A stretch of DNA of 42,430 bases from a virus: IMG/VR virus record IMGVR_UViG_3300045988_023308. One strand, 5' to 3'. The notes below the pieces were generated by a model, which made no database searches, was not told where the DNA came from, and saw only the letters and a list, made by a program, of their open reading frames with translations. Every line of letters starts with the position of its first letter. Within the stretch, counting starts at the first letter, position 1. Of this stretch, positions 2,805-36,725 are shown piece by piece. Position numbers and translations under genes: made by a program.

Positions 2805-3325
2805 TTTTCATCGTTTCCTTTCTTGTGTTTTCTCCTGTTATTTGCTTGTTCTTTTGCCGTTGCCCAACGGCAGTTATTTGGGCTGTAATTGCCATTATTA
2901 TCAATGCGATCAATCGTCAGTGTAGCCGAATAGCCATTTGCTAGCGCCCACGATTCAAATTGCTCAAAATTGTTTTTCCATTCATTGCAAACAGTAATGC
3001 CACGTCCACCATAATCAGAATAATGTTGTGATTTTGTGTTGAAACACCGTGACATCATCCCGTAGTAAATACGGTACAATCGGTTCATTTTTCGTGGAAT
3101 ATCACCAATAGTTCCGGATTTGTTGTGCTGAATGGTTGCTTCTGATTTCTTGCAACCGCAACTTTTGGTATGCCCAGTCCGTAAGTTTTGGCTGTTTACA
3201 ACAATTACTTTCCCGCAATCGCACTGGCACTCCCACATTACATTTCCTTGTGGATTAGAACCGCATGGACGAGATGCAACCAAACGTCCAAATCGTTGGC
3301 CTGTCAAATTTAGTGGTTTTCTCAT
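2801..3325 (-). CDS. HNH homing endonuclease
   Basis: GQRFGRLV...WECQCDCG...TKSCGC module followed by [26 protein letters not shown] (HNH motif). ATG at 3325 overlaps the upstream TGA. Confidence 0.75.
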
Positions 3326-7355: not shown

Positions 7356-7808
7356 ATGAAGCTAAACCCTGATTGCATCCGGGACATTATGATGTTCTGT
7401 GTAGACAAAACCTTTGTAATGGATGAGCACAGAACCGTGAAGAAAGATTCCATCTGTTTTGCAAGTTTTCACGTCCTGCATGTAGATGAGATGGCCAAAA
7501 CCGAGCAAATGCGCAAATATCCATTTGGGGAATTGACCTATCATGTGATTCAGCTTTCAGAAAGTGGATTCCTCGCAACGGATTTTTCGCTGGACACCAA
7601 AAACAGAAAAACCGAATTCCTAGTCCCGGTGATCTACTATGTCACCCCGAAAGGATACGACTTTGTGGCGGCATCCGCCGAAAAGACACAATGGGAAAAA
7701 TCCAAGTCTATCTTGGCGAAGCTGGGCGGCGTGTCAATGTCTGTCCTGGAAAAGGTTGCTGCCAATGTCGCTTCCGCTGCAATTAGTCAGCTAATGGGTA
7801 AGGGCTGA
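7356..7808 (+). CDS. DUF2513-like protein
   Basis: The N-terminus MKLNPDCIRDIMMFCVDK is characteristic of DUF2513 proteins found next to phage repressors. Confidence 0.55.
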   Translation: MKLNPDCIRDIMMFCVDKTFVMDEHRTVKKDSICFASFHVLHVDEMAKTEQMRKYPFGELTYHVIQLSESGFLATDFSLDTKNRKTEFLVPVIYYVTPKGYDFVAASAEKTQWEKSKSILAKLGGVSMSVLEKVAANVASAAISQLMGKG

Positions 7809-8040
7809 TTGCATAGCCGCCCTGGCCGTCGGAACCGAACGACACGGGAGCCGGTTCAAATGTTAGCTTGTCAAGAGCTACGGTTCTGCTGCTGTCAATT
7901 GCGTTCTTTAGGCAGGCCGGAAGCATATCTGCCTGGTCGTATGTAAGCCCATTTTTCTGCATGATTTCCATACACTCGTTTACTGTTTCTCTCATCCGAT
8001 TGCTTTTGAACCAATATCTGGGTGCGTTCATTTCGTCCAT
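7783..8040 (-). CDS. Hypothetical protein (second gene of a small antisense-oriented pair)
   Basis: ATG at 8040 after AAGGAGGA. It overlaps the upstream gene by 13 nt. Confidence 0.55.
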   Translation of the reverse strand: MDEMNAPRYWFKSNRMRETVNECMEIMQKNGLTYDQADMLPACLKNAIDSSRTVALDKLTFEPAPVSFGSDGQGGYAISPYPLAD

Positions 8041-33691: not shown

Positions 33692-34972
33692 TTACAAAAA
33701 TGCAGCAGCTGCCGGGTCAAGTGTAGTTTCTTTTTTGCTCCACAGTCGTTTGACGATGCAGGACAGGCTATCCGGTGCATCATCATGCTCGGCTTCTTCG
33801 TTGTAGTCGCAAATCTGGTTGATGTACGCTTTGTCCGTTCCATCCACAAACACGACATTTTTCCACTCAGGCTTTAGCACGCTGGAAATCTTCTCGAATT
33901 TGTTCTGGTTTTCGTGGTACTCCACACACCGTTCTCCACGCCGCCGCAAATCCTTTGCCAGATAGCCCTTGTCACCGTTGTTCTCGCAGTAAATCACACC
34001 GGCATTAAACATTTTCCGATACCGGATAATATCGTCCTTGCAATCATCAACGTGCTTTCTCCACATCTTCCCGAACACATAGTATTTTCCATTGCGTTTC
34101 TTGCAGATGGTAAATGCCGTGTAGTCCTCGCCGCCATAGGCAGCATCCACATGGCAAATGCCCTGTTCCGCAAGGGCAGGGTCAGCACCAGTTACCGGGT
34201 CACGGAATATCACATCATCTGACGCAATGTGCCGTAGTTCGTAGTTTGCGGCAAACAGGGAAGCGGTCATGCTGTCCCGGATTTTGGCAAGCGTCTCTGT
34301 GGATATAAGCCCGGTCTGGTAGCAGTCGTACCGTTCCGCTTCTGGCATCAGCGTGAAACAGTCTTCTTTGTGCCAGGGTGTGCCAGTGTTAAATATCCTG
34401 CCGCCCCGGTTCTTGATATTCTGCAATTCTTGGTAGATGATTTTCGTATGGTCACGCTCTGCCTTGGAGATGCGGTCTTGAACATTTACTATATCGTCTG
34501 TGAAAATAATATCGAAGTGCTTACCCGTCAGGGAGCCGGAAATACCACAGCCGTAAAGCTGCACTGTTCCTTTTGCGTCCTGGGAAAGATTGGTGTTGAT
34601 CTCCACAGCTGATGCGGTAGTCAACGCCAGCGGTCTTCCGTGTATTACTTCGCAAACAGCCTGCATATACGGTGACATAAGGATATTTTGCACCTGCCAG
34701 ATGACCTCTTTCACGTCGCTGTCCGTTTTGCGCATGAACATAATTTTTTTGTTCGGCAGCAGCACGATCAGGCAGGCCAGGGAGATAGACACGCAGGTTG
34801 TCTTGTAACTGCCCCGGTGCGCCTGCAACGTCTTATCAGACTTTGACCGTATCATTTCGCACATCCATGTGTTATGCAGCTTGACGGTCAAATCCTTGAA
34901 GCCAACAGCCCAGCCGATTTTTATCGGCTCATCCTTCAGCAGCTTCACCGCCTGTTCCGCTGTCATCTCCAA
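33692..34972 (-). CDS. terL: Terminase large subunit
   Basis: QAHRGSYKTT (Walker A-like), IIFTDDIV (Walker B-like), C-terminal nuclease motif EHDDAPDS. Confidence 0.85.
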   Translation of the reverse strand: MEMTAEQAVKLLKDEPIKIGWAVGFKDLTVKLHNTWMCEMIRSKSDKTLQAHRGSYKTTCVSISLACLIVLLPNKKIMFMRKTDSDVKEVIWQVQNILMSPYMQAVCEVIHGRPLALTTASAVEINTNLSQDAKGTVQLYGCGISGSLTGKHFDIIFTDDIVNVQDRISKAERDHTKIIYQELQNIKNRGGRIFNTGTPWHKEDCFTLMPEAERYDCYQTGLISTETLAKIRDSMTASLFAANYELRHIASDDVIFRDPVTGADPALAEQGICHVDAAYGGEDYTAFTICKKRNGKYYVFGKMWRKHVDDCKDDIIRYRKMFNAGVIYCENNGDKGYLAKDLRRRGERCVEYHENQNKFEKISSVLKPEWKNVVFVDGTDKAYINQICDYNEEAEHDDAPDSLSCIVKRLWSKKETTLDPAAAAFL

Positions 34973-35309
34973 TCACCATCTTTTCCAGCTCATCCAGCGC
35001 AATGCCCTTTGCATCGGCTACGGTCACATCCACATTGTCCCGCTGATCAAGGTACTGCTTGCCAAGCCAAATAGCCATAGATGCGGACTTTTCTGCAAGC
35101 TGCCATTGCTTACGCCGCAGTGATATTTTCCCCATTCCACGCTTTTGCGAAAAAACTTCGGAGAAACCCGCATGATATGTGCGTTTACACCATGATTCAA
35201 GCGTTTTGTCAGTCACGTCAAAAAAAGCACAAATTTCCAGTTTTGTACACTGAATTCCACATAGATTTTCAAATTCTTTTTGCTTGATTTCCTTCCTTGG
35301 TCTTCCCAT
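34929..35309 (-). CDS. terS: Terminase small subunit
   Basis: ATG at 35309 after AAAGGAGGGAGG. MGRPRKEIKQKEFENLCGIQCTKLEICAFFDVTDKTLESWCKR...SLRRKQWQLAEKSASMAIWLGKQYLDQRD. Confidence 0.75.
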   Translation of the reverse strand: MGRPRKEIKQKEFENLCGIQCTKLEICAFFDVTDKTLESWCKRTYHAGFSEVFSQKRGMGKISLRRKQWQLAEKSASMAIWLGKQYLDQRDNVDVTVADAKGIALDELEKMVIGDDSGTGGEAAEG

Positions 35310-35347
35310 ACGCGCCCTCCCTCCTTTTGGCACAGTACACGGCATTT

Positions 35348-35422
35348 TGGAGCAGCGAGGTCGGAGTTGAACCGCCATCTTTCCGCGGGATGCGGAATGT
35401 TTTACCGTTAAACCACCGCCGC
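35348..35422 (-). tRNA. tRNA-like cloverleaf with encoded CCA (non-canonical; possible pseudo-tRNA or tRNA-like regulatory RNA)
   Basis: GCGGCGG TG GTTT AACGGTA AAAC A TTCCG CATCCCG CGGAA AGAT GGCGG TTCAACT CCG(A)CC TCGCTGC T CCA. U8, A14, GG18-19 and the T-loop are canonical. Deviations are A33, a bulged A in the T stem, and G3.U70. Confidence 0.5.
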
Positions 35423-35433
35423 ATATTGCCGTG

Positions 35434-36171
35434 TTATTGATGCCTTTCTGCTTGCGTTACCTTTTCCCCTTTGTACATTCCAGCGCCCATTTCGTCGATT
35501 TTGGAAAACGGAATAATCGGAACGGTAAGCCGGTCTCTATATGTTTTGTCAATAAAATAGATATATCGGAACATCTTCCCTTCAAGGATTTCCCCGCCGA
35601 ACTGTTCGACGCACTTCTCCAGCGTGAAGTTTTTCCCATGTGTCCTCTCTAAAATATACCTTGACAATGCGCTGCATTTATTCTGCACTTTCATTCTGTG
35701 GGCAACTGACCCGCCGTTTATTTTCACGAGGTAATCAGGAAGTTTCCACATTGATCCGCTTGAATAACCTGTCAAAACAAACCCGCTTGCACGATAAATT
35801 GTTCCGTCACCGCATTGGCAACCATCCGCAAACGAAATGACCCATTTGATTTGCGGCGCGTTTTTGCGGATTAGTTTCATTGCAATCGAAATCGCACGGC
35901 TTTCACTATTGCGTGGGAGAATATCGTCAAACGCCATGCGGTTCAATTCGATGAATTCGTTCCACCCGGTTCCCTCAACAAGCCCTTGGATTTTAGACTT
36001 ATCTAAAGACGGGCCAAAGGACATAACGCCGTGAAGTCTGCCTTCGTAAAACACGCCGAAATGCAAATTGCTGTTATTTACAACCTTTCCGCTGTAATGG
36101 TGTGTTTTCACAAACGGAACGGCAACCTTGCTCGGAATAACTTTTACAATCAAGTCCTTTGCGCTGCCCAT
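35434..36171 (-). CDS. Mom-like GNAT-fold protein (adenine methylcarbamoylation family candidate)
   Basis: VIPSKVAVPFVKTHHYSGKV...FGVFYEGRLHGVMSFGPS...ELNRMAF...NSESRAISIAMKLIRK...ISFADGCQCGDGTIYRASGFVLTG. RBS GAGGTGA. Confidence 0.55.
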   Translation of the reverse strand: MGSAKDLIVKVIPSKVAVPFVKTHHYSGKVVNNSNLHFGVFYEGRLHGVMSFGPSLDKSKIQGLVEGTGWNEFIELNRMAFDDILPRNSESRAISIAMKLIRKNAPQIKWVISFADGCQCGDGTIYRASGFVLTGYSSGSMWKLPDYLVKINGGSVAHRMKVQNKCSALSRYILERTHGKNFTLEKCVEQFGGEILEGKMFRYIYFIDKTYRDRLTVPIIPFSKIDEMGAGMYKGEKVTQAERHQ

Positions 36172-36725
36172 TGCCGTATCACCTCATATAATGCGTTCCC
36201 GTTTTTATTGGCGTTGCCAAACGTTTCTGTTATTTCATCTTCAACACACGTCATGGCATATTCGATCAATTCTTTTTGCTGTTCATGGAGCGTGAATGTC
36301 ATTTGGCAGATTTCCGATTTGTTCCCATCCGGCAAGGAAAAATCAGTTCCGTACTCATCCTCGTTTTCAATCCCCCAATCAAAGTCAAACGCCGACAAAT
36401 CCAGTTCCGGCAGCTCCTCCACCAGCAAGTCCATATCCCATGGGCTTTCGTTGGTTTTGTTGTCCACTAGCCGCAGGGCGTTCACCTGTTCCGGCGTCAG
36501 ATCATCCACGCAGACACAAGGGACGGTTTTCATGCCCAGCTTCTTTGCAGCTTCCGCTCTGCAATGCCCAATGACGATCACGCCGTCACGATCAATGACA
36601 ACCGGCTGCACAAAACCGTACTGCTTGATACTCTCTGCCACGTTGGCAATCTGCTTTTTGTCGTGCTTCTTTGCGTTCTTCGCATACGGCACAATTTCGC
36701 TTAGTTTCTTCTGGATAATATTCAT
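36150..36725 (-). CDS. ParB-like nuclease domain protein
   Basis: LSEIVPYAKNAKKHDKKQIANVAESIKQYGFVQPVVIDRDGVIVIGHCRAEAAKKLG (ParB N-terminal/sulfiredoxin fold). Confidence 0.75.
   Translation of the reverse strand: MNIIQKKLSEIVPYAKNAKKHDKKQIANVAESIKQYGFVQPVVIDRDGVIVIGHCRAEAAKKLGMKTVPCVCVDDLTPEQVNALRLVDNKTNESPWDMDLLVEELPELDLSAFDFDWGIENEDEYGTDFSLPDGNKSEICQMTFTLHEQQKELIEYAMTCVEDEITETFGNANKNGNALYEVIRQWAAQRT

What the first reader, a model, noticed from the sequence alone, without database searches (positions are those of the whole stretch)
35348..35433. Non-canonical tRNA-like cloverleaf with encoded CCA between the Mom-like gene and terS
The minus strand from 35422 to 35348 folds as a 75-nt cloverleaf. 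It has a 7-bp acceptor stem (G1-C72, C2-G71, G3.U70, G4-C69, C5-G68, G6-C67, G7.U66), U8, a D arm GTTT/AACGGTA/AAAC with A14, G18G19 and A21, a 5-bp anticodon stem, a canonical G-TTCAACT-C T-loop, and a 3' T-CCA end. It deviates from a working tRNA in four ways. Position 33 is A rather than the near-universal U (loop CAUCCCG, nominal anticodon UCC). Position 37 is a pyrimidine. The variable loop has 4 nt. One A is bulged in the 3' T-stem strand. G3.U70 is the classical alanine identity pair. The element could therefore be an Ala-accepting RNA with a Gly-type anticodon, a decaying phage tRNA, or a tRNA-like structure used for another purpose. It is bracketed by the 7-bp inverted repeat CACGGCA/TGCCGTG and sits where terS regulatory or pac signals are expected. 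The ORF-track TerS start at 35378 runs through it and is probably spurious.
Basis: partly seen in the sequence, partly recalled or inferred. Interest (0 to 1): 0.65.

Follow-up and report, generated by a model that had tools for sequence, protein, structure and literature searches.

The report
Phage glycine-carrier tRNA beside Mom gene
The odd tRNA-like gene is real and belongs to a large, previously unannotated family of phage-encoded, glycine-type tRNAs that apparently cannot decode; they sit next to the Mom DNA-modification gene, whose Mu prototype was recently shown to take glycine from charged tRNA-Gly, so they most likely serve as Mom's private glycine carrier.

Summary
The 75-nt cloverleaf at 35348-35422 (-) is confirmed. 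ARAGORN calls it tRNA-Gly(UCC), and Rfam's tRNA model only just passes (30.7 bits, threshold 29).

It is not a decaying tRNA. A covariance model built here finds related elements beside the mom homologue:
- 63 of 80 viral loci have one within 2.5 kb, 52 of them within about 50 nt of the stop codon.
- 58 of 80 prophage loci from several bacterial phyla have one.
- terS relatives that keep ParB but lack Mom have none.

All four helices covary.

Across 108 distinct elements:
- The bacterial GlyRS determinants are nearly fixed: G1:C72 and C2:G71 108/108, U73 107/108, CC in the anticodon loop 104/108.
- Decoding features are not kept. Only 22 have a canonical loop, 32:38 is paired, and 83 have an extra nucleotide in the 3' T-stem strand.

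Mu Mom was shown in 2026 to transfer glycine from Gly-tRNA-Gly to adenine in DNA.

Best explanation (about 0.65): a dedicated, non-translating glycyl carrier for the adjacent Mom-like enzyme, analogous to the staphylococcal non-proteogenic tRNA-Gly. Charging and use by Mom are inferred, not shown.

The G3.U70 pair is peculiar to this window's subfamily and remains unexplained.

I found no prior description.

The parts
35348..35422 (-). tRNA-Gly-like RNA gene (75 nt, CCA encoded), a member of the mom-linked family defined here
   Evidence: ARAGORN tRNA-Gly(tcc). Rfam RF00005 30.7 bits. Own model R1 86.4 bits. Identical or near-identical copies in 19 viral loci.
35416..35422 (-). Acceptor stem 5' strand GCGGCGG. 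G1 and C2 are GlyRS determinants. G3 (35420) pairs with U70 (35354).
   Evidence: Sequence. G1:C72 and C2:G71 in 108/108 distinct relatives.
35399..35413 (-). D arm GUUU / AACGGUA / AAAC, with G18 G19
   Evidence: Sequence. The D stem covaries in the family.
35381..35397 (-). Anticodon arm UUCCG-CAUCCCG-CGGAA. Loop at 35392-35386, UCC at 35390-35388. C32-G38 can form a sixth pair, leaving a 5-nt loop AUCCC. A33 and C37 are non-canonical.
   Evidence: Sequence. Folds with a 6-bp stem. The 32:38 pair covaries in the family. CC present in 104/108 loops.
35359..35376 (-). T arm GGCGG-UUCAACU-CCG(A)CC with a bulged A at 35361
   Evidence: Sequence. A 6-nt 3' strand is found in 83/108 relatives. RNAalifold predicts the bulge on its own.
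35348..35358 (-). Acceptor stem 3' strand UCGCUGC (35358-35352), discriminator U73 (35351), encoded CCA (35350-35348)
   Evidence: Sequence. U73 in 107/108 relatives, CCA encoded in 70/108.
35427..35434 (-). 5' arm (ACACGGCA) of a helix that encloses the RNA gene. It starts at the last base of the mom stop codon.
   Evidence: Found only in the window's subfamily.
35337..35344 (-). 3' arm (UGCCGUGU) of the enclosing helix. It ends 10 nt before the terS ribosome-binding site.
   Evidence: One relative (L036) has C->U, which keeps a G.U pair.
35434..36171 (-). Mom-like GNAT gene (245 aa), the proposed user of the charged RNA
   Evidence: Pfam PF25680 Mom, E = 7e-55. PHROG 1384. Mu Mom structure 8bv8, E = 1e-26, with the Mu residues H58, Y59, R111, S124, D149 and Y159 conserved and R151 not conserved (residue roles from PMC13219725).
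36150..36725 (-). ParB-like nuclease-domain gene. It overlaps the mom start by 22 nt and is the usual upstream partner of mom in this clade.
   Evidence: Pfam ParB_N. PHROG 620. Same order in relatives.
34929..35309 (-). terS (small terminase), true start ATG 35309, ribosome-binding site AAGGAGG at 35326-35320. A downstream neighbour, not part of the system.

Best explanation
The element is a phage gene for a specialised tRNA-Gly derivative. It still carries the nucleotides that bacterial glycyl-tRNA synthetase reads, but it has lost the geometry needed for decoding.

Proposed course of events:
1. It is transcribed with the parB-mom-terS genes. This is inferred: same strand, and no promoter or terminator signal in between.
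2. It is cut out by the host tRNA-processing enzymes. The CCA end is already encoded. Inferred.
3. The host GlyRS charges it with glycine. Inferred from conservation of the determinants.
4. EF-Tu and the ribosome ignore it, because 32:38 closes the anticodon loop, position 33 is A, and the T stem carries a bulge. Inferred by analogy.
5. The adjacent Mom-like GNAT enzyme uses it as glycyl donor to acylate N6 of adenine in phage DNA, and the product then rearranges to N6-carbamoylmethyl-adenine. This chemistry was shown for Mu Mom with E. coli tRNA-Gly. It is inferred for this homologue.

The benefit would be a private pool of activated glycine that EF-Tu does not sequester and that does not drain translation late in infection.
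For: **Neighbour and published chemistry**
- The neighbour is a strong Mom family member. Six of the seven Mu active-site candidates named in the paper are conserved.
- Mu Mom takes glycine from Gly-tRNA-Gly. It rejects Gly-tRNA-Ala and Ala-tRNA-Ala (PMC13219725).

**Linkage to mom**
- Model R1 finds a relative within -15 to +48 nt of the mom stop codon in 52 of 80 viral mom loci. Another 11 have one within 2.5 kb.
- In 80 prophage loci, 45 are adjacent and 13 are nearby.
- The hosts of those prophage records include Bacillota, Bacteroidota, Acidobacteriota, Planctomycetota, Chloroflexota and Pseudomonadota.
- terS relatives that keep ParB but lack Mom have no hit above 12.5 bits.
- L071, whose Mom is 93% identical, carries a different family member on the opposite strand, next to a different terS.

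**It is an RNA under selection**
- 93.5% of cells pair, and 21 of 21 pairs show double changes. There are 415 double-change cells against 110 +/- 12 in shuffles. Slid controls pair at 41-47%.
- RNAalifold recovers the cloverleaf.
- In the window's subfamily the element is 95-99% identical where the flanks are 50-85%.

**What is and is not conserved across 108 distinct elements**
- G1:C72 and C2:G71 108/108, U73 107/108, CC in the loop 104/108. These are the bacterial GlyRS determinants (PMC10464925). U73 is idiosyncratic for bacterial tRNA-Gly and tRNA-Cys (PMC6097841).
- Only 22 have a canonical loop (7 nt, U33, purine 37). 35 have 6-nt loops and 20 have 8-nt loops.
- 14 of the 52 seven-nucleotide loops carry A at position 34, the ACC form.
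- 83 have the T-stem bulge.
- T loops start UGC, GGC or CGC in 45.

**Precedent**
- Staphylococcal non-proteogenic tRNA-Gly(UCC) have UGC/UGU T loops and bind EF-Tu weakly. They feed FmhB/FemAB, and EF-Tu sequestration of ordinary Gly-tRNA inhibits the transferase (PMC7826273).
Against: - Nothing here shows expression, processing, charging or use by Mom.
- Mu Mom works with ordinary host tRNA-Gly. Mu and two other phages with 33-35% identical Mom have no such element. So a private carrier is not a general requirement.
- 17 of 80 viral loci and 22 of 80 prophage loci have none within 2.5 kb.
- The window's own subfamily has G3.U70. This is the alanine determinant and also a positive determinant for the DTD deacylase (PMC6097841). 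It fits a glycine carrier poorly.
- The Mu-essential R151 aligns with Q or C in this clade.
- Whether GlyRS can read C35/C36 in a 5-nt loop is unknown.
- Whether the bulge really blocks EF-Tu is unknown.
- The alignments used for pair counts were fitted to the model, which favours the structure.
- The 80-locus caps mean the percentages apply only to Mom relatives at least about 52% identical to this one.
Confidence: 0.65

Rival explanations
1. It acts as a tRNA-Gly mimic rather than a donor. It could regulate Mom by binding it, for example uncharged, to restrain a toxic enzyme. Or it could be a decoy for a host factor that targets tRNA-Gly, such as a GNAT toxin that acetylates Gly-tRNA-Gly, an anticodon nuclease or a T-box.
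For: - The same linkage and conservation data fit an RNA that must look like tRNA-Gly to some protein.
- Mom expression is tightly controlled in Mu: a Com translational modulator is annotated next to mom.
- GNAT toxins that act on Gly-tRNA-Gly exist (PMC13219725).
- Phage tRNAs that counter tRNA-targeting defence are known (abstract of PMC12409363).
Against: - A pure decoy against host defence would not need to sit next to mom, nor be replaced there by a non-orthologous copy.
- CC in the anticodon loop points to recognition by GlyRS, that is, to charging. The Mom paper suggests Mom reads only the acceptor end.
- The encoded CCA also points to charging.
Confidence: 0.15
2. It is a cis-acting part of the late mRNA or DNA: a processing or stability signal between mom and terS, a translational control for terS, or a pac/cos-related site. 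The tRNA shape would be used only to recruit RNase P/Z or terminase.
For: - It lies 38 nt upstream of the terS start.
- In the window's subfamily it is enclosed by a helix that reaches from the mom stop codon to just before the terS ribosome-binding site.
- In most relatives examined the next gene has a small-terminase-like N-terminus.
Against: - 9 viral and 3 prophage relatives are on the opposite strand to mom and terS.
- 24 lie 0.3-2 kb away.
- In some relatives the next gene does not look like terS.
- terS relatives with ParB but no Mom lack the element.
- A processing signal would not need an invariant U73, G1:C72, C2:G71 and CC in the loop.
- The enclosing helix is confined to one subfamily.
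Confidence: 0.07
3. It is an ordinary phage tRNA-Gly(UCC) that decodes GGN codons for the phage.
For: ARAGORN and Rfam call it a tRNA. About 8 of 108 relatives have both a canonical loop and a regular T stem.
Against: - In the window, A33, C37 and a C32-G38 pair close the loop.
- The family has 6-nt and 8-nt loops, ACC anticodons, T-stem bulges and, in some, reduced D arms.
- Only 4 of 20 relatives pass Rfam's tRNA threshold.
- ARAGORN finds few of them.
- No codon-supply argument explains the fixed position next to mom.
Confidence: 0.04
4. In this window's subfamily the RNA is charged with alanine by AlaRS through G3.U70. It either carries alanine for a variant DNA modification or is a dual Gly/Ala acceptor.
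For: G3.U70 is fixed in all 7 distinct sequences of the subfamily. G3.U70 is the hallmark of tRNA-Ala (PMC6097841).
Against: - U73 and C2:G71 are glycine-type. Bacterial tRNA-Ala has A73 in 136,822 of 136,846 sequences.
- 97 of 108 relatives have G3-C70.
- Mu Mom rejects Ala-tRNA-Ala.
Confidence: 0.05
5. It is a decaying tRNA pseudogene or a chance cloverleaf.
For: It has a marginal Rfam score. The element alone is not unusually stable (z = -1.3).
Against: - It is conserved above its flanks.
- There are 108 distinct relatives with compensatory changes in every helix.
- The 'defects' are shared and themselves covary: the 32:38 pair and the bulge.
Confidence: 0.02

Closest known systems
Non-proteogenic tRNA-Gly(UCC) isoacceptors of Staphylococcus aureus and S. 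epidermidis (NP1-3), glycine donors for FmhB/FemA/FemB (PMC7826273)
   Same: - A tRNA-Gly derivative with a UCC anticodon that keeps GlyRS charging.
- Altered T loop (UGC/UGU), D loop and anticodon arm.
- Poor binding to EF-Tu and the ribosome.
- It serves a GNAT-fold aminoacyl-tRNA transferase outside translation.
- The rationale is the same: avoid competing with EF-Tu for Gly-tRNA.
   Different: - Those are chromosomal genes of one bacterial genus and feed cell-wall synthesis. These are phage and prophage genes in many phyla, physically linked to a DNA-modifying enzyme.
- The alterations here go further: 5-nt effective loops, non-U33, 6-nt or 8-nt loops, a bulged T stem and sometimes no D arm.
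- The window's own T loop is a normal UUCAACU.
- No biochemical data exist for the phage RNAs.
Mu Mom / Gly-tRNA-Gly adenine hypermodification (Silva et al., Nat Commun 2026, PMC13219725; bioRxiv 10.1101/2023.03.24.534169)
   Same: - The adjacent gene is a Mom family member with most catalytic residues conserved.
- The co-substrate established for Mom is a glycylated tRNA-Gly, apparently recognised at the acceptor end. That is the part invariant in this family.
   Different: - Mu uses host tRNA-Gly and encodes no tRNA.
- The paper's main text does not mention phage-encoded or mom-linked tRNA genes.
- Here the enzyme clade (ParB-Mom module, 52-95% identical to the window protein) usually travels with its own aberrant tRNA-Gly-like gene.
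Ordinary phage-encoded tRNAs (codon supply, or escape from tRNA-targeting defence)
   Same: A phage-borne tRNA-shaped gene, found by ARAGORN and, marginally, by Rfam RF00005.
   Different: - The family does not keep the decoding loop.
- It keeps only the synthetase determinants.
- It has a fixed genomic partner.
tRNA-Ala (G3.U70 identity)
   Same: The window's element has G3.U70 and G4:C69.
   Different: - U73 instead of A73, C2:G71 instead of G2:C71, and a UCC anticodon.
- G3.U70 is absent from 101 of 108 relatives.

Membership tests
tRNA (Rfam RF00005) | Score at or above the curated gathering threshold (29 bits) | tested here: met
   30.7 bits at 35354-35422 (-), a narrow pass. Only 4 of 20 related elements pass.
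tRNA (Rfam RF00005) | Four-helix cloverleaf supported by covariation | tested here: met
   93.5% of cells paired and 21/21 pairs with double changes. RNAalifold recovers the cloverleaf.
tRNA (working decoder) | 7-nt anticodon loop with U33, purine 37 and unpaired 32/38 | tested here: not met
   The loop CAUCCCG has A33, C37 and a C32-G38 pair. Only 22/108 relatives have a canonical loop.
tRNA (working decoder) | Regular 5-bp T stem (the EF-Tu contact region) | tested here: not met
   Bulged A at 35361. 83/108 relatives have a 6-nt 3' strand. The effect on EF-Tu was not measured.
Bacterial tRNA-Gly (GlyRS identity set: G1:C72, C2:G71, U73, C35, C36; PMC10464925) | G1:C72, C2:G71 and U73 | tested here: met
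   All present in the window. 108/108, 108/108 and 107/108 in relatives.
Bacterial tRNA-Gly (GlyRS identity set) | C35 and C36 | tested here: met
   UCC at 35390-35388. CC in 104/108 loops. Whether GlyRS reads them in a shortened loop cannot be tested here.
Bacterial tRNA-Gly | G3:C70, the usual pair in tRNA-Gly (my recollection is that it was listed as an E. coli determinant) | tested here: not met
   The window has G3.U70. 97/108 relatives have G3-C70. The lactic-acid-bacteria GlyRS paper does not list 3:70 among the determinants.
Bacterial tRNA-Gly | Glycylation by GlyRS | not testable with these tools
   Needs an aminoacylation assay.
tRNA-Ala | G3.U70 | tested here: met
   G at 35420, U at 35354.
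tRNA-Ala | A73 discriminator (136,822 of 136,846 bacterial tRNA-Ala; PMC6097841) | tested here: not met
   U73 at 35351.
Staphylococcal-type non-proteogenic tRNA-Gly (PMC7826273) | UCC anticodon, charged by GlyRS, with sequence changes in the D and T arms that lower EF-Tu binding | tested here: inconclusive
   - UCC is present and the T stem is bulged.
- The window's T loop is a normal UUC. 45/108 relatives have UGC, GGC or CGC.
- EF-Tu binding was not measured.
Staphylococcal-type non-proteogenic tRNA-Gly | Belongs to the evolutionary lineage restricted to staphylococci | not tested
   No phylogeny was made. The paper restricts that lineage to staphylococci. None of the records holding these elements is staphylococcal, which is consistent with analogy rather than shared descent.
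Mom family (Pfam PF25680), for the neighbouring gene | Profile match above the curated cut-off, and conserved active-site residues | tested here: met
   186 bits against a cut-off of 27.1. H58, Y59, R111, S124, D149 and Y159 are conserved. R151 is not.
Mom family, for the neighbouring gene | tRNA-dependent glycyl transfer to adenine in dsDNA | not testable with these tools
   Shown only for Mu Mom and two unnamed metagenomic homologues (PMC13219725).
Mom-linked tRNA-Gly-like RNA (family defined here, model R1) | - Next to a mom homologue.
- G1 C2 at the 5' end and G71 C72 U73 at the 3' end.
- CC in the loop.
- 32:38 paired.
- Extra nucleotide in the 3' T-stem strand. | tested here: met
   The window scores 86.4 bits, but it was one of R1's nine seed sequences, so the score is by construction. 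It lies 11 nt after the mom stop codon, and all five features are present.

The most novel reading that the evidence does not exclude
A large clade of Mom-type DNA-modifying enzymes has co-evolved with its own virus-encoded, non-translating tRNA. The two would form a portable two-part 'enzyme plus private aminoacyl carrier' module. It would work in hosts from many phyla and would be insulated from EF-Tu and the ribosome. As an extension, acceptor-stem variants such as this window's G3.U70 form may load a different amino acid (alanine), giving a DNA adduct not yet described.
Probability: 0.55. Interest if true: 0.88.

Novelty: new variant of a known kind. Interest (0 to 1): 0.8.

Why it matters
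- **A new class of viral RNA gene.** These would be tRNAs kept for chemistry on DNA rather than for translation. Standard annotators mostly miss them: ARAGORN found few of them, 4 of 20 pass Rfam, and the one isolated phage that carries them was published as having no tRNA genes.
- **Independent genomic support for the 2026 result.** Selection has tied a glycine-identity tRNA to mom in phages across several bacterial phyla, which supports the finding that Mom uses Gly-tRNA-Gly. It also suggests that access to Gly-tRNA, in competition with EF-Tu, limits DNA hypermodification in vivo.
- **A natural experiment on tRNA requirements.** It shows which parts of a tRNA GlyRS and Mom need (acceptor end, U73, C35-C36) and which translation needs (loop geometry, T stem).
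- **Practical uses.** An orthogonal carrier-enzyme pair would help in engineering DNA modification. A covariance model would let phage annotation pipelines flag these systems.

Tried and rejected
- **Nucleotide search against isolated phages.** Searching the mom-terS region gave one weak, unannotated hit and was of no use.
- **terS-anchored loci.** This found only one more copy of the element. It turned out to be a useful negative set: ParB and terS present, no Mom, no element.
- **Exact search for the anticodon arm.** It gave mostly unrelated hits.
- **D-arm/T-loop pattern search.** In viral contigs it recovered the window's subfamily, along with unrelated tRNA-His-like genes. In genome contigs it found only unrelated tRNAs, mostly from candidate-phyla bacteria.
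- **MAFFT alignments of the divergent elements.** They misplaced the 8-nt loops (A3, A4). I built the model from A3 with a hand-written structure and let Infernal realign.
- **Single-sequence folding of the element alone.** It is not significant (z = -1.3) and does not give the cloverleaf.
- **A general flanking helix.** Considered and rejected: strong flank pairing is confined to the window's subfamily, with scattered weaker cases. The mean over 112 loci is -8.0 against -6.7 kcal/mol for shuffles.
- **Missed elements in the 17 viral loci without one.** Checked by scoring every position with filters off. Nothing above 16.8 bits.
- **Attachment-site remnant.** Considered and rejected: the element is full length, lies between mom and terS, and is internal to prophages.
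- **Prior reports.** Six literature searches, and reading of the Mom papers' main texts, found no description of a mom-linked tRNA gene. The Mom paper's supplementary files were not read. The library is incomplete, so this is not proof of absence.
Full report
**1. The observation**

On the minus strand, 35422->35348 reads GCGGCGG UG GUUU AACGGUA AAAC A UUCCG CAUCCCG CGGAA AGAU GGCGG UUCAACU CCGACC UCGCUGC U CCA.
- the 7-bp acceptor stem with G3.U70 and G7.U66;
- A33 and C37 in the loop;
- a 4-nt variable loop;
- an A bulged from the 3' T-stem strand (35361);
- U73 followed by an encoded CCA.

ARAGORN reports exactly these coordinates as tRNA-Gly(tcc), the only tRNA in the window. Rfam's tRNA model passes narrowly, at 30.7 bits against a threshold of 29. 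No other Rfam family matches.

The flanking inverted repeat is 8 bp: ACACGGCA at 35434-35427 and UGCCGUGU at 35344-35337. With it, the region folds as a cloverleaf inside a helix (z = -3.0). The element alone is not unusually stable (z = -1.3).

All genes here are on the minus strand:
- ParB-like, 36150-36725;
- Mom-like, 35434-36171;
- the RNA gene;
- terS, 34929-35309, with start ATG 35309 after AAGGAGG;
- terL, then portal.

The ORF that starts at 35378 merely translates the 3' half of the RNA gene.

**2. It is conserved, not decaying**

A pattern scan of viral contigs found the same element, with the same flanks, in 19 loci that fall into three terS types. Over 12 distinct sequences, the element and the last ~60 nt of mom are 95-99% identical. 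The flanking coding sequence falls to 50-85%.

Most copies have CAUCCUG in the loop, so both C32-G38 and A33-U37 can pair.

**3. The neighbour gives the lead**

The upstream gene is a strong Mom family member (Pfam PF25680, E = 7e-55). It matches the crystal structure of Mu Mom (8bv8, E = 1e-26). Counting along that alignment, the Mu residues H58, Y59, R111, S124, D149 and Y159 are conserved. R151 is not.

Silva et al. (Nat Commun 2026, PMC13219725; preprint 2023) showed the following:
- Mu Mom transfers glycine from Gly-tRNA-Gly to N6 of adenine in dsDNA.
- The adduct then rearranges to N6-carbamoylmethyl-adenine.
- All three E. coli tRNA-Gly isoacceptors work.
- Gly-tRNA-Ala and Ala-tRNA-Ala do not.
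- The enzyme probably reads the acceptor end.

The main text of that paper says nothing about phage-encoded tRNAs.

**4. Test of the link**

I fetched 80 viral loci that encode relatives of the window's Mom, at 54-95% identity. ARAGORN found Gly-type or 'undetermined' tRNAs beside several distant ones.

From nine such sequences I built covariance model R1. Results:
- **Viral loci:** 52 of 80 have an element starting -15 to +48 nt from the mom stop codon, 9 of them on the opposite strand. Another 11 have one within 2.5 kb. 17 have none, even with filters off.
- **Prophage loci:** in an independent set of 80 from genome assemblies, 45 are adjacent, 13 nearby and 22 have none. By record title the hosts include Bacillota, Bacteroidota, Acidobacteriota, Planctomycetota, Chloroflexota and Pseudomonadota.
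- **Negative set:** relatives of the window's terS that keep a ParB gene but have no Mom have no hit above 12.5 bits.
- **Mu-type phages:** Mu and two other phages whose Mom is 33-35% identical have none.
- **Non-orthologous replacement:** L071, whose Mom is 93% identical to the window's, carries a different family member on the opposite strand, next to a different terS.
- **An isolated phage:** Psychrobacter phage vB_PmaS_Y8A has two tandem elements with reduced D arms in the gap between its Mom-like gene and terS. Its paper reports no tRNA genes (PMC10434257).

So the element follows Mom, not terS or ParB, and it does not need to be on the same transcript.

**5. Structure and what is conserved**

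On the model-fitted alignment:
- 93.5% of cells pair.
- All 21 pairs show double-sided changes.
- There are 415 double-change cells, against 110 +/- 12 in shuffles.
- Slid controls pair at 41-47%.

RNAalifold, predicting on its own, recovers the cloverleaf. It adds a sixth anticodon-stem pair (32:38; CG 44, UA 7, UG 3, AU 1) and places a bulge in the T stem.

Across 108 distinct elements:

| Feature | Count |
|---|---|
| G1:C72 | 108 |
| C2:G71 | 108 |
| U73 | 107 |
| CC in the anticodon loop | 104 |
| CCA encoded | 70 |
| 3:70 as G-C | 97 |
| 3:70 as G.U (only the window's subfamily) | 7 |
| Canonical loop (7 nt, U33, purine 37) | 22 |
| Canonical loop and regular T stem | 8 |
| Loop of 6 nt | 35 |
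| Loop of 8 nt | 20 |
| 6-nt 3' T-stem strand | 83 |
| T loop starting UGC, GGC or CGC instead of UUC | 45 |

The invariant positions are the published determinants of bacterial GlyRS: G1:C72, C2:G71, U73, C35 and C36 (PMC10464925). U73 is idiosyncratic for bacterial tRNA-Gly and protects Gly-tRNA-Gly from the DTD deacylase (PMC6097841).

The features that are free to vary or are disrupted are those used by the ribosome and, probably, EF-Tu.

Only 4 of 20 elements pass Rfam's tRNA threshold, and no other Rfam family covers them.

**6. Mechanism proposed**

- **Shown elsewhere:** Mom chemistry needs Gly-tRNA-Gly.
- **Shown here:** a tRNA-Gly-shaped gene with intact GlyRS determinants and a disabled decoding end is genetically tied to mom.
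- **Inferred:** it is co-transcribed with the late genes in this window (no promoter-like or terminator-like site between them on the minus strand). Host enzymes process it, GlyRS glycylates it, EF-Tu and the ribosome ignore it, and the Mom-like enzyme uses it.

The closest precedent is the staphylococcal non-proteogenic tRNA-Gly(UCC) set. Those tRNAs have UGC/UGU T loops and bind EF-Tu poorly. They feed FmhB, and EF-Tu otherwise sequesters Gly-tRNA away from the transferase (PMC7826273).

I put this explanation at about 0.65.

**7. What does not fit**

- Mu needs no private tRNA.
- About a quarter of the related loci have none nearby.
- R151 is not conserved in this clade.
- The window's subfamily has G3.U70. 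This is the alanine determinant and a positive DTD determinant.
- The enclosing helix from the mom stop codon to the terS ribosome-binding site occurs only in this subfamily. It may be a local processing or coupling device.

**8. Rivals**

| Rival | Confidence | Main objection |
|---|---|---|
| tRNA-Gly mimic acting as regulator or decoy | 0.15 | Does not need CC, CCA or a seat next to mom |
| Cis-acting mRNA/DNA signal | 0.07 | Opposite-strand and distant copies; the no-Mom negative set |
| Alanine acceptor | 0.05 | U73, C2:G71 and the G3-C70 majority |
| Ordinary decoding tRNA-Gly | 0.04 | The loop and T-stem anatomy |
| Pseudogene or chance | 0.02 | Conservation and covariation |

**9. Novelty**

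Three components are known: Mom uses Gly-tRNA-Gly, non-proteogenic tRNA-Gly exists in staphylococci, and phages carry tRNAs. Their combination is not in Rfam. That combination is a widespread, mostly unannotated family of phage-encoded tRNA-Gly derivatives with disabled decoding features, linked to a DNA-modifying enzyme. I did not find it in the papers I could search. I class it as a new variant of a known kind.

**Limits**
- No wet-lab evidence.
- Each locus set is capped at the best 80 relatives.
- Pair counts come from model-fitted alignments.
- The literature library is incomplete.

Noticed in passing
L069:1339-1410, L070:656-727, L074:698-769, L075:1465-1536, L077:526-597, L072:1342-1418 (all + strand; 1.0-1.8 kb upstream of mom in relatives of the window phage): A second odd tRNA-like class: GCAGACGUAGCUCAG...GCUGGUUCAAGUCCAGCCGUCUGC-[G/A]-CCA. 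It has a shortened anticodon arm that contains ACC or GCC, and a purine discriminator. ARAGORN calls only the L072 copy, as tRNA-Ile(aat). R1 finds no counterpart in the window. Function unknown.
   Followed up: partly
L149:3162-3229 and 3234-3302 (Psychrobacter phage vB_PmaS_Y8A, OQ059336.1, about 7786-7926): Two tandem elements with reduced D arms lie between the Mom-like gene and terS of an isolated phage. The record annotates no RNA there, and the paper states that no tRNA genes were found. This is a cultivable system for experiments. Tandem pairs also occur in prophage loci L168, L180 and L205. The second copy often lacks the CC.
   Followed up: partly
window 35427-35434 with 35337-35344 (further pairing out to about 35445 and 35326): A helix encloses the RNA gene. 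It runs from the mom stop codon to just before the terS ribosome-binding site. It occurs only in the window's subfamily (duplex -20.7 kcal/mol against about -6 for shuffles) and is longer in the L072-type relatives (-24.7). It may be a processing or expression-coupling device.
   Followed up: partly
L071:3268-3341 (-): A phage whose Mom is 93% identical to the window's has a different family member (GCGGAGG...CCUCCGC-U-CCA, loop CAUCCG) on the opposite strand. It sits after a hairpin and before a different terS. This is a non-orthologous replacement at the same site.
   Followed up: yes
window 35434-35500 (-), the last ~22 codons of the Mom-like gene: The C-terminal tail ...IIPFSKIDEMGAGMYKGEKVTQAERHQ is nearly invariant in protein across Mom relatives that are otherwise 66-79% identical. 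It is 88-98% identical in DNA within the subfamily. It extends beyond the end of the alignment to Mu Mom. It might be a clade-specific RNA-binding tail.
   Followed up: no
window about 35797-35811 (-), Mom-like residues 121-125 (ADGCQCG): The residue aligned with Mu Mom R151, reported as essential, is Q or C in this clade. H58, Y59, R111, S124, D149 and Y159 are conserved. Mu W48 at the dimer interface is K here.
   Followed up: no
window 36150-36171: The ParB-like and Mom-like ORFs overlap by 22 nt. The same ParB-Mom order recurs in most relatives, which suggests one module and translational coupling.
   Followed up: no
window 35381-35397 (+): The terminator-like hit on the plus strand (UUCCGCGGGAUGCGGAA followed by U-rich sequence) is only the anticodon arm of the RNA gene read on the other strand.
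   Followed up: yes
L158, L159, L169, L170, L186, L189, L194, L202 (prophage loci): In one group of Bacillota prophages the element lies about 680-820 nt downstream of mom rather than adjacent, as if one gene had been inserted between them. In L105-L110, L128, L201 and L206 it lies 1.2-2 kb upstream of mom.
   Followed up: no
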